Source of the DNA: a virus
Taxonomy: Duplodnaviria; Heunggongvirae; Uroviricota; Caudoviricetes
Virus record (IMG/VR): IMGVR_UViG_2597490260_000006
Length of the DNA stretch: 25,283 bases
Reading direction: 5' to 3' (one strand)
Shown: piece after piece, positions 1 through 24,149 of the stretch
Layout of the letters: every line of letters begins with the position of its first letter
Position numbering within the stretch: the first letter of the stretch is position 1
Made by a program: the position numbers and the translations under genes
The notes under the pieces: model-generated
Database searches by the model: none
The model's input: the letters and a program-made list of their open reading frames with translations, nothing else
Told to the model about the DNA's origin: nothing

Positions 1-844
1 TGTTTATCACTGGCGACCTGAACCACATCGTCACCAATAGCTATTTTTTTATAGCCCGGAGAAAAACCCGCAATCATATCCAGTGAATCGTTAAACGGTA
101 TCCACACATCAGGCAGCGGCGGCACTATATTCGCATAGGGCTCTGCAGTCACTTCCGCTGCGGCTTCTGCGCGGTCTGCCGCCTTTTCAGCTCGTGTCGC
201 TGCCGACAGAGCCTCATCCTTTTTCTGCCCGGCCTTTGTTGCGTCTGCTGCAGCCTCCCGCGCTTTTGTGGTGGCGACTCCGGCATTTTCAGCGGCTGAC
301 TCTGCATTACGGCGGGAAGCCTCTTCACTGTCTGCGGAGGCTTCTTCTGACGCACGGGCATTTGTCTCTGAACGTTCTGCCGCTGTTGCTGCGTTTTGTG
401 CGGCTGTTTTTGAANNNNNNNNNNGTTCCTGGACGATGCCGCTGCTGTTTCTGATTTCTTTGCTGCCGCTGCGCTCTGAGAGGCGGCTTCAGCGTTGCGT
501 GCCACATCCTCCACCATTTCCTGAAAACGGCGCAATGCCTCCGGCATGACATCATCTTCCGTCATGGCACCGAGAAAATCATTCAGCGTCCCCGGACTGG
601 AACCTTCATAGACGGTAATGGTCCCAACATGTGATGGCTGAGAACCCTCAATCCACAGGATGACGCTGTACTGACCATACTCAACGTCCATACTGTAACG
701 CCCGGCTTCATCAGGATTTTCAGAGGCCACCGTGTTCACCAGTACCGTGGTGCTGTTACGCTTTGCCTTCAGTTGAATAGTGCAGTTCTGTATTGGTTTT
801 CCCGCACCATCTTTCAGCACACCTGAGATTTTTACTGCTGCCAT
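1..844 (-). CDS. stf: Side tail fibre protein Stf, 5' portion (partial, continues beyond window start; interrupted by N-run)
   Basis: Translation from the ATG at 844 (MAAVKISGVLKDGAGKPIQNCTIQLKAKRNSTT...) matches the recalled lambda Stf N-terminus. The track ORF begins at a GTG at 850, but the ATG at 844 has a GGAG 5 nt upstream. After the N-run the track ORF continues in a low-complexity frame; my manual translation shows the Ala/Glu/Ser-rich Stf-like frame starts at 413 and stays open to position 1. Confidence 0.8.
415..424. other. Run of 10 ambiguous bases (assembly gap or masked bases) inside stf
   Basis: Literal n characters at 415-424; the stf reading frame changes phase across it, so true gap length is unknown. 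Confidence 0.95.
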
Positions 845-856
845 ATCCACTCCACA

Positions 857-908: not shown

Positions 909-1508
909 TCAGAATTTATAACCGACACCAACGATGAAACCGTCAGTGCGCCAGTCGCCACTGCCGGAACCTTCATAAGCAATATCAATGGCCACGGATT
1001 CGGTCGGGTTAAACTGCACGCCAGCCCCCCACGCCAGAGACGTGTCGCTGTAGCGACCGTCATCACTTCCGGTCAGCACATCGTCCGTTTTCCCCTTGTT
1101 ATCAGTTACGCGGAGATAATCCCCGGAGAAAGTCGACACACGGCTGTAAGCCACGCCCGCCATCGCATACGTGCTGAACCATTCATTCACGCGTACAGAC
1201 GGCCCCGCCATCATGCTGAACCAGCGGTTACGCACGGAATCTTCATGCCAGCGGGTATCGCTGTAGTGCGTTTTTTGCTCATCCTCAGCATTGGCATAAC
1301 TGAAGGACGTAATCAGCCCCAGCGCGTCCGTAAACTCATAACGGTATTTCACGTTAATCCCGTTCAGATTATCGCTGCCGGGAGCGTTCGTACGGGCATG
1401 AAGATACCCCGCGCTCAGTGTGGACTGATGTTCAGACGCCCATGCAGGCGCACCGGATACGGACAGACAGATGGCTGCGGACAAAATGGCTGCACATAAT
1501 TTACGCAT
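909..1508 (-). CDS. lom: Lom outer membrane protein (Ail/Lom family beta-barrel)
   Basis: 199 aa with N-terminal signal peptide (MRKLCAAILSAAICLSVSGAPAWA) and C-terminus ...DWRTDGFIVGVGYKF with terminal aromatic residue typical of OMPs; sits between J and stf as lom does in lambda. Confidence 0.85.
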   Translation of the reverse strand: MRKLCAAILSAAICLSVSGAPAWASEHQSTLSAGYLHARTNAPGSDNLNGINVKYRYEFTDALGLITSFSYANAEDEQKTHYSDTRWHEDSVRNRWFSMMAGPSVRVNEWFSTYAMAGVAYSRVSTFSGDYLRVTDNKGKTDDVLTGSDDGRYSDTSLAWGAGVQFNPTESVAIDIAYEGSGSGDWRTDGFIVGVGYKF

Positions 1509-5334: not shown

Positions 5335-5982
5335 TCAGCGACCAATCACCACAACCTGACCACCATCCCCTTCGTCTGCCGTGCTGATCTCCTGAGAAAC
5401 CACCCGCGACCCCACACGCATTTCACCGTACAGAACAGGCAGAACATTGCCCTGAGCAACCATGTTATCCAGTGAGGAAAAATAGGTGTTCTGTTTGCCG
5501 TTATCTGTACTGGCTGCCGTGGACGTCCTGGCTTTCGGTGCCAGCATCTGCGCCACACCGCCCAGGATCATACTGGCCCCTGCCGCATACATGCCCGATA
5601 CAGCCGCGGCACCCAGCCAGCCCACAGGGTTCCACCATGCCACCGCAATCAACGCCGCCCCCAGCACCACCTGAAATACACCGCCACTTTTAGCTCCCGC
5701 CAGACGCGGCACGATATGGATCACGGCACCATTTGCCAGCGGCTCATTAAGACGGGCAGATAATTCGGTTTCACCTGCATCACGCCCGGCAATGCGCACC
5801 TGATACCAGCCGTCATTCAGTTTCTGACGAAACGCCGGGAGCTGTGTGGCCAGCGCCCGGATGGCTTCGGCCCCCGTTTTCACACGAAGGTCGATGCGGC
5901 GACCAAATCGTTGCAAATCCCCGTAAAGGCAGATGCGTGCCATGCCCGGTGACGCCAGAGGGAGTGTGTGCGTCGCTGCCAT
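5335..5982 (-). CDS. I: Tail assembly protein I
   Basis: 215 aa; MAATHTLPLASPGMARICLYGDLQRFGRRIDLRVKTGAEAIRAL... and C-terminus ...NVLPVLYGEMRVGSRVVSQEISTADEGDGGQVVVIGR match recalled lambda gpI; overlaps K as in lambda. Confidence 0.85.
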   Translation of the reverse strand: MAATHTLPLASPGMARICLYGDLQRFGRRIDLRVKTGAEAIRALATQLPAFRQKLNDGWYQVRIAGRDAGETELSARLNEPLANGAVIHIVPRLAGAKSGGVFQVVLGAALIAVAWWNPVGWLGAAAVSGMYAAGASMILGGVAQMLAPKARTSTAASTDNGKQNTYFSSLDNMVAQGNVLPVLYGEMRVGSRVVSQEISTADEGDGGQVVVIGR

Positions 5983-6623
5983 TTGTCGGTATACCTCTCT
6001 CGTTTGCTCAGTTGTTCAGGAATATGGTGCAGCAGCTCGCCGTCACCACAGTAAATGGCGGCATGATTCGGCACCGATGAACCAAAACAGCACAGCAGCA
6101 CATCGCCCGGCTGCGCCGCTGACAACGGCACCTGATACAGCCCTGTGGCCTCCAGATTATCCAGATAGAGATTCTGACCGTGACGCCACCAGTCATCCCC
6201 GCGATGAAAATCCGGCATCTCAATCCCCGCCAGATGATAAGCATCCCGGAACAGCGTGTAACAGTCCGTCACCCCGTGCTCAAAGCGCCGCCCGGTAAGA
6301 TGCGGCACACAGCGGAATTTATGAATCTCACCCCGGCAGACCAGCCACCACAGCAAATCACTCTGCACCTGCAGCCGCCGGTCGGCCTCACTCAGCCAGG
6401 GCAGACCACCGGGGTGGCTGTGGACCAGCGCCACAATCTCACCCTGCATCTCTGCCCGCAGCCAGTCCTCCGGCGACATCCGGAAATACGCCTCCGGCTC
6501 ACCGGAGATATTCACGCAGGGAAAATATCTTTCCCCCTCCGGCGTTCTCACCACGAAGCCGCACGACTCCGCTGGCGCACATCGCCGGGCGTGCGCCAGA
6601 ATCGCTGATTCTGTCTGTGTCAT
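5880..6623 (-). CDS. K: Tail assembly protein K (JAMM/MPN metalloprotease plus NlpC/P60-like domain)
   Basis: Start moved to the internal ATG at 6623 (MTQTESAILAHARRCAPAESCGF...), since upstream codons overlap the L gene end. Contains the JAMM motif HSHPGGLPWLSEAD (HxH-x7-S-xx-D). Confidence 0.85.
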   Translation of the reverse strand: MTQTESAILAHARRCAPAESCGFVVRTPEGERYFPCVNISGEPEAYFRMSPEDWLRAEMQGEIVALVHSHPGGLPWLSEADRRLQVQSDLLWWLVCRGEIHKFRCVPHLTGRRFEHGVTDCYTLFRDAYHLAGIEMPDFHRGDDWWRHGQNLYLDNLEATGLYQVPLSAAQPGDVLLCCFGSSVPNHAAIYCGDGELLHHIPEQLSKRERYTDKWQRRTHSLWRHRAWHASAFTGICNDLVAASTFV

Positions 6624-6627
6624 GGGA

Positions 6628-7326
6628 TTACTGCGAAAGTTTGTTAATGGAAAGGAAGCCGCCAAAGTTGCCGACGTTATTGCGAAACTTACAACCACTC
6701 AGGCATTTGCTGCATTTATCCTTCGTGATATCGGACGTCGGCTGGTCATATTCATCCGCGACAGCCGGACCGTGATAACCGCACTCATCACCGCGATAGG
6801 TCCAGGTGCAGGTATTAGCCAGCATGATGCGCCCCGGAAAAACAGCACCGTCCGTTTCCGTCGGCGTGGACAGTACAAAAGAGGCACTGACCGCGCTCAG
6901 TTCGCTGCACTGCTCGATGCGCCAGCGGCTGATCACCTCCTGCTCCGGATCGGCGTCACTGTTTCCGTTGACGAAGTTCACCGCATCCAGAAAACGGGCG
7001 TAAACCTTACGCCTGACCACCGTTCCGCCGACCAGACTCTGCAGGTCTTCCGCCATCCCGGTGACCATTCCGTGCAGGTTAGAAACCGTCAGTGTCGGAC
7101 GGGCAGCACTGCCCTTGCCGTTCAGTTCAAATCCCGTCCCCTGAATGGGGTATGCCTGATACTGCCGCCCCTGCCAGGTAACCGGCTCACCTTTTTCGTT
7201 CTGCTCATTACAGAAAAAATAACGTTCACCACCGACCTCTGTCAGATCGATTTCCCAGAGCACCGCCTGGGCTGACTGAGTGAGGCGTGTCGTCTCATGA
7301 TGTGTTTCCTGTGGAATATCCTGCAT
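6628..7326 (-). CDS. L: Minor tail protein L
   Basis: 232 aa; MQDIPQETHHETTRLTQSAQAVLWEIDLTEVGGERYFFCNEQNEKGEP... matches recalled lambda gpL; C-terminal Cys cluster (CGYHG...DKCSKCLSGCKF). Confidence 0.9.
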   Translation of the reverse strand: MQDIPQETHHETTRLTQSAQAVLWEIDLTEVGGERYFFCNEQNEKGEPVTWQGRQYQAYPIQGTGFELNGKGSAARPTLTVSNLHGMVTGMAEDLQSLVGGTVVRRKVYARFLDAVNFVNGNSDADPEQEVISRWRIEQCSELSAVSASFVLSTPTETDGAVFPGRIMLANTCTWTYRGDECGYHGPAVADEYDQPTSDITKDKCSKCLSGCKFRNNVGNFGGFLSINKLSQ

Positions 7327-10600: not shown

Positions 10601-10721
10601 CAGAAGACCGTTCTGCATCGCTGGCTGCACCATTCAGAAGGTTTTTGATACGGGGGATTTCATTTTTAAACTCTGCCGCATCAATCCCCAAATCAATGAC
10701 CAGGTTGGCTATCTGGTCCAT
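7665..10721 (-). CDS. H: Tail tape measure protein H
   Basis: About 1018 aa, Ala/Gln/Glu/Arg-rich coiled-coil-like sequence throughout, positioned between T and M. Start placed at the ATG at 10721 (MDQIANLVIDLG...) with GGAGG 8 nt upstream; the track ORF starts 30 nt earlier inside the T frame. Confidence 0.85.
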   Translation of the reverse strand: MDQIANLVIDLGIDAAEFKNEIPRIKNLLNGAASDAERSSARMQRFMERQTQAARQTTQAASSAATAASVHAQTVEKNAQAHERMAREVEKTRQRMEALSQKMREEQAQAMALAEAQDKAAAAFYRQIDSVKQASAGLQELQRIQQQIRQARNSGGIGQQDYLALISEVTAKTRVLTQAEEEATRQKVAFIRQLKEQATRQNLSSSELLRAKAAQLGVSSAAEVYIRKMEQAGKATHSLGLKSAAARQEIGVLIGELARGNLGALRGSGITLANRAGWIDTLMSPKGMMLGGVIGGIAAAVYGLGKAWYDGQKEGEEFNRQLSLTGHYAGVTAGQLWTLSRAISGNGITQHAAAGALAQVVGSGAFRGNDIGMVARAAAQMERSVGQSVSDTINQFKRLKDDPVNAAKSLDNELHFLTATQLEQIRVLGEQGRSSDAARIAMSALAEETGRRTADIDNNLNALGSTLQTLSDWWKQFWDAAMNIGREDSLDAQIATLQEKVSRAKRLPWTASSSQVEYDQQRLNDLQEKKRQKDLQDAKEQAERNYQEQQKRRNAENAALNRMNETEAARHQREIARINAMQYADQAVRDAAIQRENERYEKALASGKKKTRETRNDEATRLLLQYSQQQAQVEGQIAAARQSAGIATEKMTEAHKQLLALQQRISDLDGKKLTADEKSVLARKDELIQALTLLDVKQQELQKQTALNDLKKKTIQLTSQLAEEERAQRQQHDLDIATVGMGDQQRQRYQVQLSLRQKYQQQLEQLRRDSEQKGTYNTDDYRKAEQALTESLNRQLNENRRYWQRLEIAQGNWKNGVLRALQNVTENADNTAGTVEQLFTSAFSSMSDWLATFCTTGKLNFKSFTSSVLSDMSRIMAQIALMKAVKGIASALPFDFVANADGGVYQSADLSRYSGTVVNRPTFFAFAKGAGVMGEAGPEAILPLRRGADGKLGVVADIGGSGMAMFAPQYNIEINNDGTNGQIGPAALKVVYDLGKKAAADFMQQQARDGGRLSGAYR

Positions 10722-11043
10722 AACGCACACCTCCGGAAATACCTTCCCCAAGATGCATCAGTTCTTCGTCCGTTCGCTCCGGTATCCCGTTCTCTTCCGG
10801 TAAAAGGCTGAAATCAGCCACCGCAGCATCACTGCTGCCGGACACCATTCTCACGATCAATGCCTTCAGCGAGGCAAACTGCGCATCCATCCACACATCA
10901 CTGAAGCTCTGCATCCGGAAATAATCGCCCCACTCACCAAGCTCAGTGGCCGACATTTCCGACAGCATCCGCCGCCAGTCTGCCCGCCGGAACTCCCGGG
11001 CAAGCCGCATGACAAACTGCATTTCCCGCGTCAGGACTTTTCC
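10693..11043 (-). CDS. T: gpT reading frame, expected to be expressed as a G-T fusion by -1 ribosomal frameshift
   Basis: ORF in the -1 frame relative to G, overlapping the last codons of G, with no independent RBS. I checked the frame by hand: at the coding-strand sequence CCG GAA AAG TCC TGA, stepping back one base reads GGA AAA GTC CTG ACG CGG GAA ATG CAG... and runs to the stop at 10693. Confidence 0.7.
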   Translation of the reverse strand, partial: GKVLTREMQFVMRLAREFRRADWRRMLSEMSATELGEWGDYFRMQSFSDVWMDAQFASLKALIVRMVSGSSDAAVADFSLLPEENGIPERTDEELMHLGEGISGGVRYGPDSQPGH

Positions 11044-11417
11044 GGCGTCAGCACCTCATGCTCCAAATCCCCGGCATTATCAATGGCCCCCATACCGCTC
11101 AGCGACAGAACCATCTCCGCCCCCGCACCCAGGGCATCATACGACCATGTTGTAATAACGGATGCGCAAAGCGTCTCTACATCCTTAGACTGATCCGCAT
11201 TCCACAGTGAGCGGGAAACCAGCCAGGCATTGATATCCATCCCCATCCGCAGAAAAGCAATCTGTCGTTCAGCCTCCGGCAGTTCTCCCTCACCGGCATC
11301 AAACTTTGCCGTTCGCTGCTGAACAAACGCCAGATATTCAATTCTCTGCAACCCGGACAGCTCACTGAGCACCACGGACTGTTTTTCATAATTAAACGTG
11401 CCCTGTTTCAGAAACAT
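11031..11417 (-). CDS. G: Tail assembly chaperone G
   Basis: Start taken at the second of two adjacent ATGs (MFLKQGTFNYEKQSVVLSELSGLQRIEYLAF...), GGAG about 6 nt upstream; resembles recalled lambda gpG; lies between V and H. Confidence 0.8.
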   Translation of the reverse strand: MFLKQGTFNYEKQSVVLSELSGLQRIEYLAFVQQRTAKFDAGEGELPEAERQIAFLRMGMDINAWLVSRSLWNADQSKDVETLCASVITTWSYDALGAGAEMVLSLSGMGAIDNAGDLEHEVLTPEKS

Positions 11418-11433
11418 CATGTTCTCCACCTGC

Positions 11434-11457
11434 AAAAAAGCCCCGGATAACCGGGGC
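11434..11457 (-). terminator. Intrinsic terminator between V and G
   Basis: Minus strand reads GCCCCGG-UUAU-CCGGGGC followed by TTTTTTG, 20 nt after the V stop. Confidence 0.6.
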
Positions 11458-11477
11458 AAATGATGAGTATCGTCCTG

Positions 11478-13219: not shown

Positions 13220-13495
13220 TTACTCAATAAAGATCATTGGCTTACCGTTAAAGCGTTCATGCCGTGTGACCGTCCATTGTTGTCCGTCATAAACAACGCG
13301 ATCCCCGCGCCGTGGGCGGTATCCCGAAGAAAACACCACCAGAGAGACCGCAGGTCCGGACAGAGCATTCAGCTCTGCCAGTGTTTCTCCCGGGATCACA
13401 GCCATATCGACATCATTAATCGAGGCTGTCTTTCCCATCTTTCTGACCGTGATCGCATCCATACGCGCTGCCAACCGGGAAAAGGGATCAGACAT
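13220..13495 (-). CDS. Head-tail joining protein, FII-like
   Basis: 91 aa directly upstream of Z; segment RRGDRVVYDGQQWTVTRH resembles the recalled lambda gpFII region RRGDTLTIGEENFWVDRV. Position matches FII in the lambda order. Confidence 0.6.
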   Translation of the reverse strand: MSDPFSRLAARMDAITVRKMGKTASINDVDMAVIPGETLAELNALSGPAVSLVVFSSGYRPRRGDRVVYDGQQWTVTRHERFNGKPMIFIE

Positions 13496-13811
13496 TGAGT
13501 TTTACCGGCACTTCTTCTGCACTGGTTCCGGCATCTGCCCAGACAACCCCGACCAGCGGATCAGAGCCGCTGTTAGTCAGCTGAACTTTTCCGGACTTCA
13601 GATAAACCTTCTTACCCGTTTTCATGTCATCCGTTTTCAGCTTAGGCAGCATAAACACACCTTCGGTCATGCCGTCGCCTGTTTCACCCTGTGGAATATC
13701 GGTCAGCGCCACCGCAAAAACATCGCCCACCTGCACCAGATCTCCGCTGCTGATGGCTGCACTGGCAACAATCGCCACCGTTTTTCCTTCTTCTACAAAA
13801 TTCTTTGCCAT
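13488..13811 (-). CDS. Small head-associated protein of unknown function (possible decoration or head completion protein)
   Basis: Start placed at the ATG at 13811 (MAKNFVEEGKTVAIV...), GGAG 7 nt upstream. Occupies the slot right after the major capsid gene. No similarity to lambda D or FI that I can recognise; family assignment is a guess. Confidence 0.6.
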   Translation of the reverse strand: MAKNFVEEGKTVAIVASAAISSGDLVQVGDVFAVALTDIPQGETGDGMTEGVFMLPKLKTDDMKTGKKVYLKSGKVQLTNSGSDPLVGVVWADAGTSAEEVPVKLNV

Positions 13812-13897: not shown

Positions 13898-15856
13898 TTA
13901 CGCCGTACATTTCACCAGACCGCGGTGATCAACTGGCGCGACACCGGCGTCAATACGCACTTTCGTTGTCACGCCATCCACACTGAAGCCCTCCATCTGA
14001 TCAATATATGGCGTATCCACACCGTTGAGATAAGCCACTTCAATCGTATCGGAGCCTTTGGACGCAGCCAGGTAGAAAGTGGTCTGGCTGTTATCATCAA
14101 GACGAGGCTCTGCAATAACGGTCGCAAAATCTTTCACCGGGTTAATAATACCGGCGTTAATGTCAGCCCCCTTGACACTTGAGGAGCGAATGACCTGGTT
14201 AGCAACAGACTCCATCGCCGTCGGTACCAGTACGAACGCAGGACGAATATTCAGATGACGCTCCCCCTCTTTCTGAACGCGCATCAACTGGCGGGCTTTA
14301 TCCAGCGATGCCACGTCCATTGCAGCGCTCTCCAGTACGTTTGCATGTTTCGCTTTATCGAACAGACTTACATTATCTGTGGAGATTTTCGGGTTAGACG
14401 TCAGAATGGCATAAACCAGATCGGCAATAGTGGATTTCGCCGCACGGCCCAGTTTCATCGGGACATCGGTCAGCATATTCAGATCATCATTGATAATGGC
14501 CTGACGGGTGATACTGAACAGCTCGCCATAGGTCGCCAGTGCAATAGTGGCCTGTTTATCTCCGGTGGTGACGTATTTATATTCCGCCCCTTCACGCACC
14601 TTACGCAGAGCACTGAAGCCCCCCATACCCACACGATGGGCAATTTTAAAATCAGACAACTGACCTTTCCGCGTCCACTGTTCATAGGTTTCAGGGGCAT
14701 CTTCCCAGCCCTGCAGAATGGCTTTGTTCGCAACATCCAGCAGAATATTACCGAAGTCAGACGTACTGTGTGTGAACGCCGCACCGACCATCTGCATCGG
14801 GTTATAACTGGAAACACCAATACCCCGTTCAGTCAGTGACATACGGGCATATTCACGCAGAGTCATCCCGTTGTAGACATTATCACGTTCGGTTTTTTCA
14901 AATCCGGCACGCGCCATCAGCGCCTGGCGGATCCCGTCCCCCACAAAATTACCGTTACCGGCATAAATATGAGCCGGGGTATTTTTATTGGATGGCGTGG
15001 ACTCGCGCCCCATCTCGTTCAACAGCTTTTCGCGGGCCTGCTCCAGCGAACATTCAGGATCGGCAAGGCACTGAGCCTGCAGCGTCTGATAACGCCCGCC
15101 AAACATGGCAAACAGATCATTAATACCGTTTACACGCGCTTTTTGCTCTGCCAGTACCTGCGCACGGATACTGTTTTCATCCAGCACGGGTGCTGCTGCC
15201 TGCACTGGCGTCCGGGAGGCTGCAGGTTCATTATCCTGTACGCGTGGAGCACTGTTACGTGGCGGAGTAATCATGTTTCGAATGGATTCCGGCATCTTTT
15301 TAAATTCCTCTGTACGTTTTGACTGAATACATGCCATTGCCTTAACGGCTGGCGTCACCTGATCAGCAAATCCCTGTGCCAGACATTCGGCACCGGACAT
15401 CCAGGTCTCATCCGCCAGCATGGCAGCAATTTCATCGGTGGTTTTCCCGGTTTTCTGTGCATAAGCGGGTAACAGAACCGCCTCAACTTTATCGAGCAGG
15501 TCGGCATAGGTGCGCATGTCCTCCGCATCACCGCCCGTAAAGCCAAATGGTTTATGAATCATCATGAAGGTGTTTTCCGGCATAATGACCGGGTTTCCCA
15601 CCATCGCAATGACCGACGCCATTGACGCCGCCACACCGTCGACATAAACGGTAATGGACGCACCATGTGTTTTCAGTGCATTAAAAATGGCGATGCCTTC
15701 AAAGACATCGCCACCCGGTGAATTGATATGGAGATTAATGTGGGTGATATCGCCCAGTGCATTCAGATCACTGATAAACTGCTTCGCCGTAACACCCCAG
15801 AAACCAATCTCGTCATAAATATAAATATCCGCATCACTCTGGTGACCAGCCTGCAT
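13898..15856 (-). CDS. Fused prohead protease (ClpP-like) - scaffold - major capsid protein
   Basis: Start placed at the first ATG after the portal stop (MQAGHQSDADIYIYDEIGFWG...), about 652 aa. N-terminal region has ClpP-type motifs (HINSPGGDVFEG, AASMASVIA, MMIHKP). It is followed by a Gln/Ala/Glu-rich linker and a long C-terminal domain in the position and size of a major capsid protein. Confidence 0.75.
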   Translation of the reverse strand: MQAGHQSDADIYIYDEIGFWGVTAKQFISDLNALGDITHINLHINSPGGDVFEGIAIFNALKTHGASITVYVDGVAASMASVIAMVGNPVIMPENTFMMIHKPFGFTGGDAEDMRTYADLLDKVEAVLLPAYAQKTGKTTDEIAAMLADETWMSGAECLAQGFADQVTPAVKAMACIQSKRTEEFKKMPESIRNMITPPRNSAPRVQDNEPAASRTPVQAAAPVLDENSIRAQVLAEQKARVNGINDLFAMFGGRYQTLQAQCLADPECSLEQAREKLLNEMGRESTPSNKNTPAHIYAGNGNFVGDGIRQALMARAGFEKTERDNVYNGMTLREYARMSLTERGIGVSSYNPMQMVGAAFTHSTSDFGNILLDVANKAILQGWEDAPETYEQWTRKGQLSDFKIAHRVGMGGFSALRKVREGAEYKYVTTGDKQATIALATYGELFSITRQAIINDDLNMLTDVPMKLGRAAKSTIADLVYAILTSNPKISTDNVSLFDKAKHANVLESAAMDVASLDKARQLMRVQKEGERHLNIRPAFVLVPTAMESVANQVIRSSSVKGADINAGIINPVKDFATVIAEPRLDDNSQTTFYLAASKGSDTIEVAYLNGVDTPYIDQMEGFSVDGVTTKVRIDAGVAPVDHRGLVKCTA

Positions 15857-15869
15857 CCTGAACCAGGAA

Positions 15870-17378
15870 TTATTCTTCGGACTGGTTGTTGGTGTGCTGC
15901 GGCTCCTGTCGTTTCGTTGCGGCACTGCTGCCTCCTTTATCACTGGCCGGATCGGTATCAAATACCAGATCCAGCTTGCGGTTTTCATCAATTTCGGCCT
16001 TGCGCCGACGTTTGACATCATCCGGATTACGACCACCAGCACGTACCCAGTCTGATTCTGTCGCCGCTCCACCACGAATCTGGATTTTCCAGGCCTCAGC
16101 CTCCTTAACAGGGTCAATCCACGGCATCACCGGTCCGGAATACACCGCGGTATACAGTGAAGAACGGTCAAGATCGCGGGGTAGCCTGATAACACCGGAT
16201 GCCACAGCCTGTTTCAGCCAGGCACGGTACATCGGGCGGGTGACGGCACCAATAAACCAGTCCTGCAGGATCAGGTAGCCATCAGTGGATTCAACCAGCT
16301 CCTGACGCTGGGCGCTGTAAGTGCCGTTATAGTTGCGCGCTGTACTGGAAAAACTCAGACGACTGCCAGCCGCCACGGCACGCAACTGACCATTACGAAA
16401 AGTTTCAAGGTTAGGATTGGGACGATCCGACTTCACCATTCCGATTTCTTCGCCGGGTTTCAGATCGTCGTAAATAATGCCTGGCTGAATGGTAAGCTCG
16501 CGTTCATTCTCCTTGCTGTCATTACCATCCGTTTCATAGCTCTGTCCGTCGCCTTTCCGGATGTACATCCCCAGAGCAGCGGCGATCCTTGCTGCAGTCA
16601 GCTCAGAATCTTCATACTCTTTCAGGGCGCTGAGGCGGATCAGCACACCGGACAATAAAGACGTCCCGCGCATCTGGTGCAGACGGCGAACAAATTTAAG
16701 ATGCAGCATTCGCTCTGCATCCACTTCTTTGGTTTCCATCTGCCGTCCGGATACAGGACGACTTTTATACACCAGATATTTTTCGGGACGCCCCCAGTCA
16801 TCAACAAACACGCCCTGATTCAGCCTGTTGCTCTCATCACTGGTCATGGGAATAAAGTCCGGCTCGAGCGCCTCCAGCCAGAAATGAACACCGGCAGAAG
16901 GCGTCAGGCTGTTTATGCGCCCGGAAACCATCTGGGCAAACACCTCACCATCGCGCAGCCAGGTACGCAGCATCAGACGTTCCAGCATCGGACGGGTAAA
17001 CTGCCCGGTGACTTCCGGACTGACAGACCATTCACTCCATCGGGTACGTATCTCCGCTGCCAGGTCACGGGCAATGGCACCATTGCGTAATACCGGATGT
17101 GGCTCGACAATAATCCCGTTTTTCCCCACCACCCGTTCTTCCAGCTTGTCAAATACACCAATGACCAGATCGTGGTTGTTATCAAGGTAACGGGCCTGCT
17201 CACGTAACGACACGGCCCCGTACTGGCTTAACTGGTCGGCAGTTCGGTTCTCCCGTCGGGCTTTGTGTGTCCGCGTCGTTTTTACGGCCTCATAAGCTTG
17301 GATCACCGCTCGGGAACGCAGCCTTGCCGCTTTCCATCCTGGTGAAAAAACGCCAATCACATCATCAAGAATTGCCAT
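15870..17378 (-). CDS. Portal protein
   Basis: Start placed at the ATG at 17378 (MAILDDVIGVFSPGWKAARLRS...), which shares one base with the W-like stop (TGATG) and has GAGG 5 nt upstream. About 502 aa between the W-like gene and the protease-capsid gene. Confidence 0.8.
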   Translation of the reverse strand: MAILDDVIGVFSPGWKAARLRSRAVIQAYEAVKTTRTHKARRENRTADQLSQYGAVSLREQARYLDNNHDLVIGVFDKLEERVVGKNGIIVEPHPVLRNGAIARDLAAEIRTRWSEWSVSPEVTGQFTRPMLERLMLRTWLRDGEVFAQMVSGRINSLTPSAGVHFWLEALEPDFIPMTSDESNRLNQGVFVDDWGRPEKYLVYKSRPVSGRQMETKEVDAERMLHLKFVRRLHQMRGTSLLSGVLIRLSALKEYEDSELTAARIAAALGMYIRKGDGQSYETDGNDSKENERELTIQPGIIYDDLKPGEEIGMVKSDRPNPNLETFRNGQLRAVAAGSRLSFSSTARNYNGTYSAQRQELVESTDGYLILQDWFIGAVTRPMYRAWLKQAVASGVIRLPRDLDRSSLYTAVYSGPVMPWIDPVKEAEAWKIQIRGGAATESDWVRAGGRNPDDVKRRRKAEIDENRKLDLVFDTDPASDKGGSSAATKRQEPQHTNNQSEE

Positions 17379-23096: not shown

Positions 23097-24149
23097 TTAT
23101 TTCCCCACCAGCTCGTTTATCTCTTTCACTGTCTGGTTAAACCGCTCTGACTCAAGCTCAACACCTAAGGCCCGACGCCCCAGCGCCATTGCTGCTTTTA
23201 TTGTGGAACCGGATCCCATAAAAAAATCAGCAACCAGATCACCAGGTCGACTACTGGCATTGATTATTTGCCTGAGCATATCCGCCGGTTTCTCACACGG
23301 ATGTTTACCCGGGTAGAACTGAACGGGTTTATGCATCCAGACATCGGTATAAGGCACGGAGACTGATACGGAGAAATAGCGCCGGAGAGATTTAAACTCA
23401 TCCAGCAATTCAGAATATTTGCGATTCAGTGAATCATAAGATGCCACCAGCTGGTGGTGTGGTTGTTCCAGTTGTTGTTCCTGAAACTTCTCTGCCGCTA
23501 TACGGGAAAACAGTGCCTGTAACTTCCGATAGTCAGCCTCATTCGGCAACTGCCACTGACTGGCACCAAACCAGTGGGAAACCATATTTTTCTTACCTGT
23601 GGCTTCGGCAATTTGTTTTGCCGTTATACCCAGTTCGGCACGAGCATCCCTGAAATACGATATCAGCGGTGCCATTATGTGCTGTTTGAGTTCCCTTTCT
23701 TTTGCCGCATAGCCGTCACTTTTGCCGCGATATGGCCCCTGGTAATGTTCAGCAAACAGAACGCGCTCTGTGGCAGGAAAATATGCGCGCAGACTTTCTT
23801 TATTACACCCATTCCAACGTCCGGACGGCTTCGCCCAGATGATATGGTTAAGCACGTTGAAACGTTCACGCATCATGATCTCAATATCAGATGCCAGGCG
23901 ATGCCCACAGAACAGGTAAAGGCTTCCGGCAGGTTTTAACACCCGCCAGAACTGGGCCAGACAGTGGTCCAGCCACTTAAGGTAATCTTCGTCCCCTTTC
24001 CACTGATTGTCCCAACCGTTGGGTTTCACCTTGAAGTACGGCGGATCGGTAACAATCAGGTCAATGGAATCATCAGGCAGGGACTGAATAAAATGCAGGC
24101 AATCAGCGTTGATTAAATCAACACTGTTTATTTTTACAGTATTTTTCAT
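23097..24149 (-). CDS. DNA methyltransferase, N6-adenine or N4-cytosine type, beta-class motif order, no adjacent restriction gene
   Basis: 350 aa; DPPY motif near the N-terminus (LIVTDPPYF) and FxGxG AdoMet-binding motif near the C-terminus ([13 protein letters not shown]); a helix-turn-helix-like segment in the middle. No obvious Shine-Dalgarno before the ATG. Confidence 0.85.

What the first reader, a model, noticed from the sequence alone, without database searches (positions are those of the whole stretch)
13898..15856. Prohead protease, scaffold-like linker and major capsid protein encoded as one ORF
A single open frame of about 652 codons combines ClpP-type protease motifs, a Gln/Ala/Glu-rich linker and a capsid-sized C-terminal domain. 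Lambda encodes these functions in separate genes (C, Nu3, D, E). The head module therefore comes from a different lineage than the lambda-like tail module, and maturation presumably involves self-processing.
Basis: partly seen in the sequence, partly recalled or inferred. Interest (0 to 1): 0.4.

Follow-up and report, generated by a model that had tools for sequence, protein, structure and literature searches.

The report
Known phage protease–scaffold–capsid fusion gene
This is the ordinary, already catalogued head gene of a common E. coli lambda-like prophage, in which the capsid-trimming protease, a scaffold segment and the capsid protein are one gene; comparative evidence suggests a second start inside it that may also make a protease-less capsid precursor.

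Summary
On the minus strand, 13898-15856 is an uninterrupted frame. It encodes a ClpP-like serine protease (about res 1-170), a Pro/Ala-rich tether (197-226), a three-helix scaffold-like domain (227-283), a short conserved linker (284-303) and an HK97-fold capsid domain (304-652).

It is already known. It scores 985 bits (cut-off 475) against NCBIfam NF045540, [quoted passage not shown]. It is 100% identical to RefSeq-annotated genes and occurs in 2124 of 5426 complete E. coli genomes. It is 99% identical in cultured phages (cdtI, mEp460, Ayreon) that have no other capsid gene. The same three-in-one design was proposed for Pseudomonas phage MD8.

Two corrections:
- The best-supported start is GTG 15925 (675 codons), overlapping the portal gene.
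- Lambda's D-type function sits in a separate cement gene (13488-13811).

One addition: in 74 of 75 gammaproteobacterial homologues, Met188 is an ATG preceded by a Shine-Dalgarno-like AGGA, which is held fixed at synonymous sites. This region has the lowest synonymous variation in the gene. It points to a nested 465-residue scaffold-capsid product, as in lambda C/Nu3.

Self-processing and the internal start are inferred, not shown.

The parts
13898..15925 (-). Full-length gene: ClpP-like prohead protease / scaffold / major capsid protein fusion (675 codons from GTG 15925; 652 from the ATG at 15856 given in the finding; predicted 73.5 kDa).
   Evidence: ORF. NF045540 985 bits against a cut-off of 475. 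RefSeq CDS WP_001596842.1 has the same coordinates. Mass.
15931..15937 (-). Shine-Dalgarno AAGGAGG, 5 nt upstream of the GTG start (15923-15925). It lies inside the 3' end of the portal gene.
   Evidence: The same AAAGGAGG-N5-GTG is conserved across the enterobacterial clade.
15347..15856 (-). ClpP-fold serine protease domain (res 1-170 in ATG numbering). Catalytic Ser78 is at 15623-15625 and His101 at 15554-15556. Glu150 (15407-15409) aligns with the ClpP Asp.
   Evidence: Pfam/NCBIfam. PDB ClpP alignments. Foldseek TM-score about 0.8 (normalised to ClpP length), rmsd about 2 A to ClpP. S78 and H101 are invariant in 71/71; position 150 is E in 57 and D in 9.
15306..15309 (-). Internal Shine-Dalgarno-like AGGA (codons 183-184, GAG GAA), 10 nt upstream of the internal ATG.
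   Evidence: Present 9-10 nt upstream of the ATG in 73/74 homologues, against 0-30% for the 15 other conserved-Met columns. Codon 183 ends in G in 71/71, against 46% gene-wide. The synonymous-diversity minimum of the whole gene lies at res 175-191.
15293..15295 (-). Internal ATG (Met188): predicted start of a nested, in-frame scaffold-capsid product (res 188-652, 465 aa, 50.7 kDa). Inferred, not shown.
   Evidence: ATG in 74/75 aligned gammaproteobacterial homologues. Mass.
15179..15268 (-). Pro/Ala/Gln-rich flexible tether (res 197-226). Its length varies from 10 to 54 residues among homologues.
   Evidence: pLDDT below 50 at 201-221. Length range.
15008..15178 (-). Three-helix scaffold-like domain (res 227-283), analogous in position to the HK97 delta domain. 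The scaffold function is inferred.
   Evidence: Helices 227-250, 257-265 and 271-283 at pLDDT 95-97. The region is conserved in 57 of 111 long homologues by phmmer and absent from bare-capsid homologues.
14948..15007 (-). Second linker (res 284-303) with the conserved motif TPS..AHI(Y/H)AGNGN. Candidate maturation cleavage region; the mature capsid protein is predicted to begin about res 290-304 (about 38 kDa).
   Evidence: pLDDT below 50 at 293-301. N301, G302, N303 and D307 are (near-)invariant. Bare-capsid homologues start at about this position.
13901..14947 (-). HK97-fold major capsid protein domain (res 304-652; Pfam Phage_capsid_4, distantly Mu gpT-like).
   Evidence: Model pLDDT 93. 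Foldseek hits encapsulins, HK97 Head II and many phage capsids at E about 1e-9 to 1e-8 with 7-16% identity. The weak PDB sequence match is to Mu-gpT-domain capsids 8rkx/8rkc.
13488..13811 (-). Separate downstream capsid cement/decoration gene (107 aa, PF09956 Phage_cement_2, ex-DUF2190). It is the functional counterpart of lambda D.
   Evidence: E 9e-21. RefSeq 'DUF2190 family protein'. The same gene follows the capsid gene in a distant relative, L084.
15870..17378 (-). Upstream portal gene (lambda-family portal, 502 aa). Its last 56 nt overlap the fusion gene's 5' end.
   Evidence: PF05136, E 5e-82. 23% identity to lambda gpB. Annotation.

Best explanation
This is the head-shell gene of a mEp460/cdtI-type lambdoid prophage of E. 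coli. It is a member of the catalogued 'ClpP-like prohead protease/major capsid protein fusion' family.

Translation from GTG 15925 gives a 73.5-kDa chain: ClpP-fold serine protease, flexible tether, three-helix scaffold-like domain, short conserved linker, HK97-fold capsid domain.

Most likely (inferred) a second, internal initiation at ATG 15295 (Met188) also produces a 50.7-kDa scaffold-capsid chain without the protease. This would parallel lambda making Nu3 from inside C, and herpesviruses making UL26.5 from inside UL26.

Both chains would co-assemble through their capsid domains on the lambda-family portal. The N-terminal parts would point inward, so the protease is delivered as part of a shell subunit.

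Once enclosed, the protease would cut in the disordered linkers. This would remove itself and the scaffold part and leave a capsid protein of about 38 kDa starting near res 290-304. The shell would then expand, be filled with DNA, and be stabilised by the separately encoded cement protein.

Shown here: the domain identities, catalytic-residue conservation, gene context, intactness across relatives, and nucleotide-level conservation of the internal ribosome-binding site. Inferred: use of the internal start, the ratio of the two products, self-cleavage and its sites, and the scaffold role of res 227-283.
For: Family membership:
- NF045540 985 bits against a cut-off of 475, full length; PHROG_133; Pfam CLP_protease plus Phage_capsid_4.
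- 100% identical RefSeq CDS with that product name.

It is the working capsid gene:
- 99% identical in cultured phages. In Ayreon the gene order is TerS-TerL-W-portal-fusion-small protein-FII-Z-U-V..., with no other capsid gene.
- 78 phage records carry the full-length fusion.

Folds:
- N-terminal domain is ClpP (TM-score about 0.8 normalised to ClpP length).
- C-terminal domain has the HK97 fold. Model pLDDT is 90-93.

Active protease: Ser78 and His101 are invariant in 71/71.

Internal start:
- ATG in 74/75 homologues.
- AGGA-type motif 9-10 nt upstream in 73/74, against 0-30% at 15 control Met columns.
- Codon 183 varies between E, K and Q but is always NAG (71/71), against 46% G-ending gene-wide.
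- For 14 lineages below 60% mutual identity, the chance product is 3e-5.
- The eight lowest synonymous-diversity windows of the gene all lie at res 175-191.
- Local RNA is not structured (z = +1.1).

Cleavage region:
- Disordered 293-301 with an invariant N-G-N motif.
- Bare-capsid homologues begin there.

Precedent: the MD8 gp5 three-in-one proposal (PMC8508860).
Against: - No experimental datum for this family was found: no N-terminal sequence, virion mass spectrometry or procapsid composition. Ten literature searches were run, and only the bioinformatic MD8 paper was relevant.
- Met188 is not conserved in more distant ClpP-type fusions. In a 21-sequence sample, 17 have V/A/T/I/F/P/L at that column or are gapped there. 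A nested start is therefore at best clade-specific.
- The AGGA-to-ATG spacing (10 nt; about 8 nt when aligned to the full anti-SD) is at the long end of the usual range.
- The proteins that seemed to be stand-alone 'MP...' scaffold-capsid genes turned out to be a contig-truncated copy and a frameshifted copy of the fused gene. They do not show independent use of that start.
- How a ClpP-fold domain, which is normally heptameric, would be activated while tethered to capsomers is unknown.
Confidence: 0.62

Rival explanations
1. Single-product polyprotein. Only the full-length chain is made, every shell subunit carries its own protease and scaffold part (1:1 stoichiometry), and all of them are trimmed after assembly. 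The conserved AGGA-N10-ATG would then be a translational pause site at the domain boundary, or some other nucleotide-level signal, rather than a start.
For: There is one uninterrupted ORF in 74/78 loci. NCBIfam, RefSeq and all phage records annotate a single CDS. Distant ClpP-type fusions lack a Met at this column. The MD8 paper describes one gene without mentioning an internal start. By my own rough estimate, the extra mass fits inside a T=7 procapsid: 415 x about 35 kDa is about 15 MDa, comparable in order to P22 scaffold loads.
Against: A pause site would not need the ATG, yet the ATG is kept in 74/75 at a fixed 9-10 nt from the AGGA. None of the 15 other conserved Met codons has such a motif. 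Synonymous constraint peaks exactly there.
Confidence: 0.3
2. Decayed or artefactual fusion. The long ORF would be a prophage pseudogene, or a sequencing or assembly error that hides a stop or frameshift between separate protease and capsid genes.
For: Many E. coli prophages are defective. The protein database holds obviously chimeric versions of this protein joined to terminase, portal or tail protein L. One related locus (L083) is split by a frameshift. The VT1-Sakai copy is interrupted by IS629.
Against: An identical ORF is found in at least 10 independently sequenced complete genomes. It is 98.5-99.2% identical in 16 records of plaque-forming or induced phages. The frame is kept open at 46-99% amino-acid identity across Gammaproteobacteria. 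Catalytic and capsid residues are under purifying selection. No other capsid gene exists in these phages.
Confidence: 0.02
3. The ClpP-like domain is a catalytically dead structural (scaffold) module, and maturation uses a host protease or no cleavage at all.
For: Scores against cellular ClpP equivalog models are far below their cut-offs (59 against 309 bits for TIGR00493). The third triad position is Glu rather than the canonical Asp. No cleavage data exist.
Against: Ser78 and His101 are invariant in 71/71 diverse homologues, and the surrounding ClpP active-site motifs (GxAAS, MIHxP) are kept. The domain matches the curated 'head maturation protease, ClpP-related' model at 216 bits against a cut-off of 120. 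In other relatives the same capsid family is fused to two other protease families, S49 and S78. This argues that protease activity is the selected function.
Confidence: 0.05

Closest known systems
NCBIfam NF045540 'ClpP-like prohead protease/major capsid protein fusion protein' (scaf_prot_MCP1). Members include the cdtI, mEp460, Ayreon and long-tailed Stx phage genes, and Pseudomonas phage MD8 gp5 as described in PMC8508860.
   Same: It is a member. It matches the model over its full length at twice the cut-off. It has the same domain order, the same position after a lambda-family portal and before a DUF2190/cement gene, and 99-100% identity to annotated members.
   Different: Nothing in the architecture differs. 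I did not see the conserved internal AGGA-ATG in the annotations or in the MD8 paper. The 675-codon GTG start does not differ from the RefSeq annotation, but most of the phage records checked annotate the shorter ATG-start CDS.
Phage lambda C / Nu3 / E (with D)
   Same: It has a ClpP-clan serine protease and a scaffold segment in one reading frame, probably with an in-frame internal start giving the protease-less product. The portal and large terminase belong to the same Pfam families. A separate decoration protein stabilises the shell.
   Different: The protease is of ClpP (S14) type, not S49. The capsid protein is in the same chain instead of a separate gene E. The decoration protein is PF09956 rather than gpD. 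There is no BLASTP similarity to C, Nu3, D or E.
Phage HK97 gp4 protease / gp5 (delta domain fused to the capsid protein)
   Same: A scaffold-like N-terminal segment is contiguous with an HK97-fold capsid domain and is presumably removed by a phage protease inside the procapsid. There is no separate scaffold gene (HK97 facts as summarised in PMC8508860).
   Different: HK97's protease is a separate gene of family S78. Here a ClpP-type protease is covalently attached upstream. The capsid domain is only 7-16% identical to solved HK97-fold shells. A cement protein is present, and HK97-type chainmail cross-linking was not examined.
NCBIfam NF045541 'prohead protease/major capsid protein fusion protein' (scaf_prot_MCP2), and S49- or S78-type protease fusions to the same capsid family
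   Same: The scaffold-capsid part is the same (NF045541 aligns to res 195-649, 401 bits). The design is the same three-in-one.
   Different: The score is below that model's cut-off (401 against 525), because the N-terminal protease belongs to a different family. In those relatives Pfam finds Peptidase_S78 or Peptidase_S49 instead of CLP_protease.
Herpesvirus UL26 / UL26.5 (protease-scaffold with a nested scaffold gene) and phage Mu I/Z with capsid protein gpT
   Same: The logic of delivering a maturation protease is the same: it is fused to an assembly-competent partner while the partner is also made alone from a 3'-coterminal in-frame unit (my own knowledge; the conserved herpesvirus strategy is the subject of PMC11565193, which I saw only as a title and abstract). 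The capsid domain is weakly Mu-gpT-like (PF10124, E 3.7e-8; PDB 8rkx/8rkc).
   Different: In those systems the partner is the scaffold only and the capsid protein is a separate gene. The protease folds are unrelated (herpes) or of another family (Mu).

Membership tests
NCBIfam NF045540, ClpP-like prohead protease/major capsid protein fusion | Full-length match to the curated HMM above its cut-off. | tested here: met
   985 bits against a cut-off of 475; residues 9-651 align to model positions 2-651 of 652.
NCBIfam NF045540, ClpP-like prohead protease/major capsid protein fusion | N-terminal ClpP-related head maturation protease domain with a catalytic Ser and His. | tested here: met
   NF045542 216 bits against a cut-off of 120. 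ClpP fold with TM-score about 0.8 normalised to ClpP length. Ser78 and His101 are invariant in 71/71.
NCBIfam NF045540, ClpP-like prohead protease/major capsid protein fusion | C-terminal HK97-fold major capsid domain in the same chain. | tested here: met
   PF25209, E 2e-54. Foldseek probability 1.0 to HK97-fold shells.
NCBIfam NF045540, ClpP-like prohead protease/major capsid protein fusion | It is the only capsid gene of the head module and sits between the portal gene and the head-completion genes. | tested here: met
   Window context. Phage Ayreon and RefSeq annotation.
NCBIfam NF045540, ClpP-like prohead protease/major capsid protein fusion | Autoproteolytic removal of the protease and scaffold parts to give the mature shell protein. 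| not testable with these tools
   Only indirect evidence: disordered linkers at 201-221 and 293-301, and a conserved motif at 296-307. No experimental report was found.
Lambda C/Nu3-type nested protease-scaffold gene | In-frame internal ribosome-binding site and start codon giving a 3'-coterminal protease-less product. | tested here: inconclusive
   The sequence signature is present and under nucleotide-level selection. Its actual use in translation cannot be tested here.
Lambda C/Nu3-type nested protease-scaffold gene | Protease of family S49 (SppA-like), with the capsid protein encoded by a separate gene. | tested here: not met
   There is no PF01343 hit; the domain is CLP_protease. There is no BLASTP match to lambda C, Nu3 or E. 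The capsid domain is in the same chain.
HK97 gp4/gp5-type head module | Separate S78 protease gene upstream of a delta-domain-capsid gene. | tested here: not met
   There is no Peptidase_S78 hit, and the protease is fused. Relatives with an S78 protease fused to the same capsid family do exist.
Cellular ATP-dependent ClpP (TIGR00493 and related equivalogs) | Score above the equivalog cut-off. | tested here: not met
   58.7 bits against a cut-off of 308.6; all other cellular ClpP models are likewise far below their cut-offs. It has the same fold but is not a cellular ClpP.

The most novel reading that the evidence does not exclude
The fusion gene is really a two-product nested gene in a large gammaproteobacterial prophage clade. 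A strongly conserved internal ribosome-binding site and ATG (Met188) make a scaffold-capsid chain as the bulk building block. The full-length chain, started at a GTG overlapping the portal gene, is a minority subunit that carries the protease into the shell. Protease dose per procapsid would then be set by the ratio of two translation starts. I found no mention of this in the annotations or in the literature available to me. That is not proof that it is unpublished.
Probability: 0.55. Interest if true: 0.4.

Novelty: already known. Interest (0 to 1): 0.22.

Why it matters
As a finding it matters little. The gene is correctly named by NCBI's pipeline, is present in about 39% of complete E. coli genomes, and the three-in-one design is in print.

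Its practical value is for annotation:
- Many phage records call it only 'protease', 'Nu3' or 'preconnector', and so appear to lack a capsid gene.
- Most of the phage records checked use a start codon that is probably 23 codons too short.

If the nested start is real, this very common and genetically tractable coliphage group (mEp460, cdtI, Ayreon) would be a simple system for two questions. How is the dose of maturation protease per procapsid set? How is a ClpP-fold enzyme kept inactive until it is enclosed?

Tried and rejected
1. ATG 15856 as the true start. Rejected in favour of GTG 15925. The ATG has no Shine-Dalgarno sequence, and conserved residues (NSWF) lie upstream of it.

2. Hidden frameshift or stop. 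Rejected.

3. 'Stand-alone' scaffold-capsid genes starting MP..., as independent proof of the internal start. Rejected. P0147 sits on a 1.5-kb contig whose frame is open to the contig edge. P0133 (L083) is a frameshifted fused gene that still encodes the conserved peptide upstream of the Met in the other frame. P0204 also starts 78 nt from a contig end.

4. A family-wide internal start. Rejected. More distant ClpP-type fusions have no Met at that column.

5. A close solved capsid structure. None exists. The PDB sequence search gives only weak Mu-gpT-domain hits (E 2e-4), and Foldseek gives generic HK97-fold or encapsulin hits at 7-16% identity.

6. RNA structure around the internal start. Nothing significant (z = +1.14).

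7. Literature. Ten full-text searches were run (two earlier query attempts were rejected for term format), plus two failed look-ups by id for papers I recalled from memory (Liu & Mushegian 2004 by DOI; Casjens & Hendrix 2015 by a guessed PMC id). Only PMC8508860 was directly relevant. No virion proteomics or N-terminal sequence for this family was found.

It was replaced by phmmer in the sandbox plus two 10-protein scans.
Full report
**1. What is there**

The window is the late region of a lambdoid prophage. All genes lie on the minus strand, in this order:
- DNA methylase, P21-type holin, lysozyme, Rz
- small terminase (DUF1441 type)
- gpA-type large terminase
- a 72-aa W-position gene
- lambda-family portal
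- the ORF in question
- a PF09956 cement protein
- an FII-position gene
- Z, U, V, G/GT, H, M, L, K, I, J, Lom and a tail-fibre N-terminus

The reported frame is real. From ATG 15856 to the stop at 13898 there are 652 codons without interruption.

**2. Identity**

- Pfam finds CLP_protease at residues 23-168 (E 6.6e-36) and Phage_capsid_4 at 355-649 (E 2e-54), with a weak Mu gpT match.
- NCBIfam gives a full-length match to NF045540, 'ClpP-like prohead protease/major capsid protein fusion protein'. The score is 985 bits against a cut-off of 475.
- NF045542, 'head maturation protease, ClpP-related', also matches. Cellular ClpP equivalogs are far below their cut-offs.
- PHROG_133 matches end to end.
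- The DNA is 100% identical to chromosomal prophages of many E. coli strains, where RefSeq gives exactly this product name. 2124 of 5426 complete E. coli genomes carry a match.
- It is 98.5-99.2% identical in 16 phage records (cdtI, mEp460, Ayreon, phi458, Tritos and others) and about 77% identical in long-tailed Stx phages.
- In phage Ayreon the head-tail operon contains no other candidate capsid gene.
- At protein level, 78 phage records carry the full fusion. About 700 others match only the protease part, i.e. they have stand-alone ClpP-type prohead proteases such as Pseudomonas D3 orf5.

The fusion is therefore genuine, functional and already catalogued. The same 'protease, scaffold and capsid protein in a single gene' idea was published for Pseudomonas phage MD8 gp5 on bioinformatic grounds (PMC8508860).

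**3. Anatomy**

An AlphaFold2 model built on 106 diverse homologues has a mean pLDDT of 90.4. It shows five segments:
- a compact domain at 1-170
- short helices to about 196, then a disordered stretch at 201-221
- a three-helix bundle at 227-283 (pLDDT 95-97)
- a second disordered stretch at 293-301
- a large alpha/beta domain at 304-652

The first domain superposes on ClpP from many species (TM-score about 0.8 normalised to ClpP length, rmsd about 2 A). A second model of residues 222-652 (pLDDT 93) matches HK97-fold shells (encapsulins, HK97 Head II, numerous phage capsids) with probability 1.0 but only 7-16% identity. No close solved structure exists. The best PDB sequence hits are Mu-gpT-domain capsids at E 2e-4.

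Ser78 and His101 are invariant in all 71 ClpP-type fused homologues examined. Position 150, which aligns with the ClpP Asp, is Glu in 57 and Asp in 9.

The first tether varies from 10 to 54 residues and is Pro/Ala/Gln-rich. The second linker has a fixed length (17-25 residues) and carries a strongly conserved TPS..AHI(Y/H)AGNGN(I/F/L)VGD motif. Bare-capsid homologues begin at about this point. I take this motif as the likely maturation cleavage region. That would leave a mature protein of about 38 kDa. This is inference.

**4. Start codon**

The frame is open up to 16117. GTG 15925 has an AAGGAGG 5 nt upstream, whereas the ATG at 15856 has none. RefSeq uses the GTG, giving 675 aa and a 56-nt overlap with the portal gene.

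The residues just upstream of the ATG (NSWF) are conserved in distant homologues as SWY, NWF or RWY. In those homologues the 'Met' is Leu, Val or Ile. The AAAGGAGG-N5-GTG arrangement is conserved across the enterobacterial clade, and the Trp is present in 72 of 75 homologues. The gene is best placed at 13898-15925.

**5. Evolutionary context**

A search with the capsid domain alone against 1.84 billion cluster representatives found 10,642 relatives at E <= 1e-3.
- Of the best 148 representatives, 111 are 600 residues or longer, with the capsid domain at the C-terminus.
- 73 of those 111 have the same ClpP-like N-domain.
- Of ten of the others scanned with Pfam, seven carry instead an HK97-type S78 (four) or a lambda-type S49 (three) protease, and three had no recognisable protease domain.

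The scaffold-capsid unit has thus been joined to at least three protease families. This fits the existence of a second NCBIfam model, NF045541, which aligns to residues 195-649 here.

A scan of one genome per species returned 79 loci from Enterobacterales, Pasteurellaceae, Vibrionaceae, Shewanella, Pseudomonas and others, at 46-99% identity. In 74 of 78 the frame is uninterrupted for 620 codons or more. The four exceptions are cut by contig ends or are partial.

**6. An internal start (my addition)**

In an alignment of 75 of these ORFs, Met188 is ATG in 74. An AGGA/AGGAG/AAGGA motif lies 9-10 nt upstream in 73 of those 74. The controls are as follows:
- Of 16 columns with a conserved Met, only this one has such a motif. 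Its frequency is 99%, against 0-30% for the others.
- The motif is built from codons 183-184. Codon 183 changes between Glu, Lys and Gln but is always the G-ending synonym (GAG 47, AAG 15, CAG 9; 71/71). In the same genes only 46% of E/K/Q codons end in G, and 15 other E/K/Q columns range from 25 to 81%. Codon 184 is GAN (Glu/Asp) in 72 of 75.
- With one sequence per lineage below 60% mutual identity (14 lineages, 12 with NAG), the product of their own G-ending frequencies is 3e-5. At below 70% identity (30 lineages) it is 3e-9.
- A synonymous-diversity scan over 54 sequences below 85% identity puts the eight lowest 9-codon windows of the entire gene at residues 175-191. The minimum is 0.38 against a gene mean of 0.58.
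- The local RNA is, if anything, less structured than shuffled controls.

Together these show selection on the nucleotide sequence for a Shine-Dalgarno-plus-ATG at the protease/scaffold boundary. The simplest reading is a nested, in-frame product, residues 188-652 (50.7 kDa): a scaffold-capsid chain without protease.

Limits of this evidence:
- It is comparative evidence only.
- The Met is absent in more distant ClpP-type fusions.
- The database proteins that begin at this Met are a truncated copy and a frameshifted copy of fused genes, not independent genes.

**7. Mechanism proposed**

- Shown: domain folds, catalytic residues, gene order, the selective constraints above.
- Inferred: both chains co-assemble via the capsid domain on the portal, with their N-terminal parts inside. 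The tethered protease becomes active in the closed shell and cuts the disordered linkers, degrading itself and the three-helix domain. The 38-kDa shell protein then expands and is stabilised by the separate cement protein.
- Main rival: only the full-length chain is made. Roughly 415 copies of a 35-kDa extra mass would still fit in a T=7 procapsid (my own estimate).

**8.

BLASTP against lambda gives:
- Z 50%, U 53%, V 55%, M 56%, L 93%, K 96%, I 78% and J 71% identity
- G 33% and H 26%
- TerL 25% and portal 23%
- no match at all for the fusion protein, the cement protein, or the W-like, FII-like and TerS proteins

The head module is therefore of a different, distantly related lineage and is joined to a lambda-type tail module. 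The join lies between the FII-position gene and Z.

**9. Verdict**

The only element that may be new is the conserved internal start. It needs a simple experiment (procapsid protein composition, or start-site profiling) to confirm or dismiss.

Noticed in passing
window 15870-15925 (minus strand): The 5' end of the fusion gene (GTG 15925) overlaps the last 56 nt of the portal gene in another frame, and its AAGGAGG Shine-Dalgarno lies inside the portal coding sequence. This suggests translational coupling of portal and shell-protein synthesis. Phage GenBank records mostly annotate the shorter ATG 15856 start.
   Followed up: partly
L083 2357-4332 (NCBI GCA_000755365.1, contig BBMQ01000056.1): A relative in which a frameshift splits the gene into a 201-aa ClpP protease and a 443-aa scaffold-capsid ORF that starts exactly at the Met188-equivalent ATG. 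The conserved peptide upstream of the Met is still readable in the second frame, and AAGGA lies 10 nt upstream. It could be a pseudogene, a sequencing error, or a still-functional split made possible by the internal start.
   Followed up: partly
protein database hits P0005, P0009, P0033, P0034, P0059-P0061, P0064-P0068, P0080, P0081: Many database 'proteins' join this fusion protein, at 99% identity, to pieces of large terminase, portal, tape measure, tail protein L or J-like domains (lengths 727-1135 aa). They are probably deletion-derived defective prophages or assembly or gene-calling artefacts. I did not examine them.
   Followed up: no
window 13488-13811 (minus strand): The gene after the fusion is a 107-aa PF09956 'Phage_cement_2' (ex-DUF2190) protein. 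The same pairing of capsid gene and cement gene is seen in a distant relative (L084). This is the likely decoration/cement partner of this capsid family.
   Followed up: partly
window 909-1508 and 149-850 (minus strand): Downstream of J there is a Lom/Ail-family outer-membrane protein gene (42% identical to lambda Lom) and a 'prophage tail fibre N-terminal' gene (233 aa) that ends 148 nt from the window edge.
   Followed up: no
window 5880-6698 (minus strand): The mechanical ORF for the K-like gene is 272 aa from a GTG, but only residues 74-272 align with lambda K, at 96% identity. The real start is therefore probably internal, and the long ORF overlaps the L gene end.
   Followed up: no
window 10693-11459 (minus strand): The G-like ORF (11031-11459) and the overlapping downstream ORF (10693-11022) have the layout of the lambda G/GT tail-chaperone pair, which is expressed by a programmed -1 frameshift. 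I did not look for the slippery site.
   Followed up: no
window 23097-24149 (minus strand): A 350-aa N6/N4 DNA methylase gene sits immediately upstream of the holin-lysozyme-Rz lysis cassette in the late region.
   Followed up: no
residues 189-200 of the fusion protein (window 15257-15292, minus strand): Directly after Met188 there is a conserved peptide, P-x-x-(I/L)-(K/R)-N-(M/L)-(I/L)-x-x-P-(R/Q/K). Pro189 is present in 75/75 and Pro199 in 69/75. The peptide forms a short helix in the model. Its function is unknown. It would be the N-terminus of the nested product.
   Followed up: no
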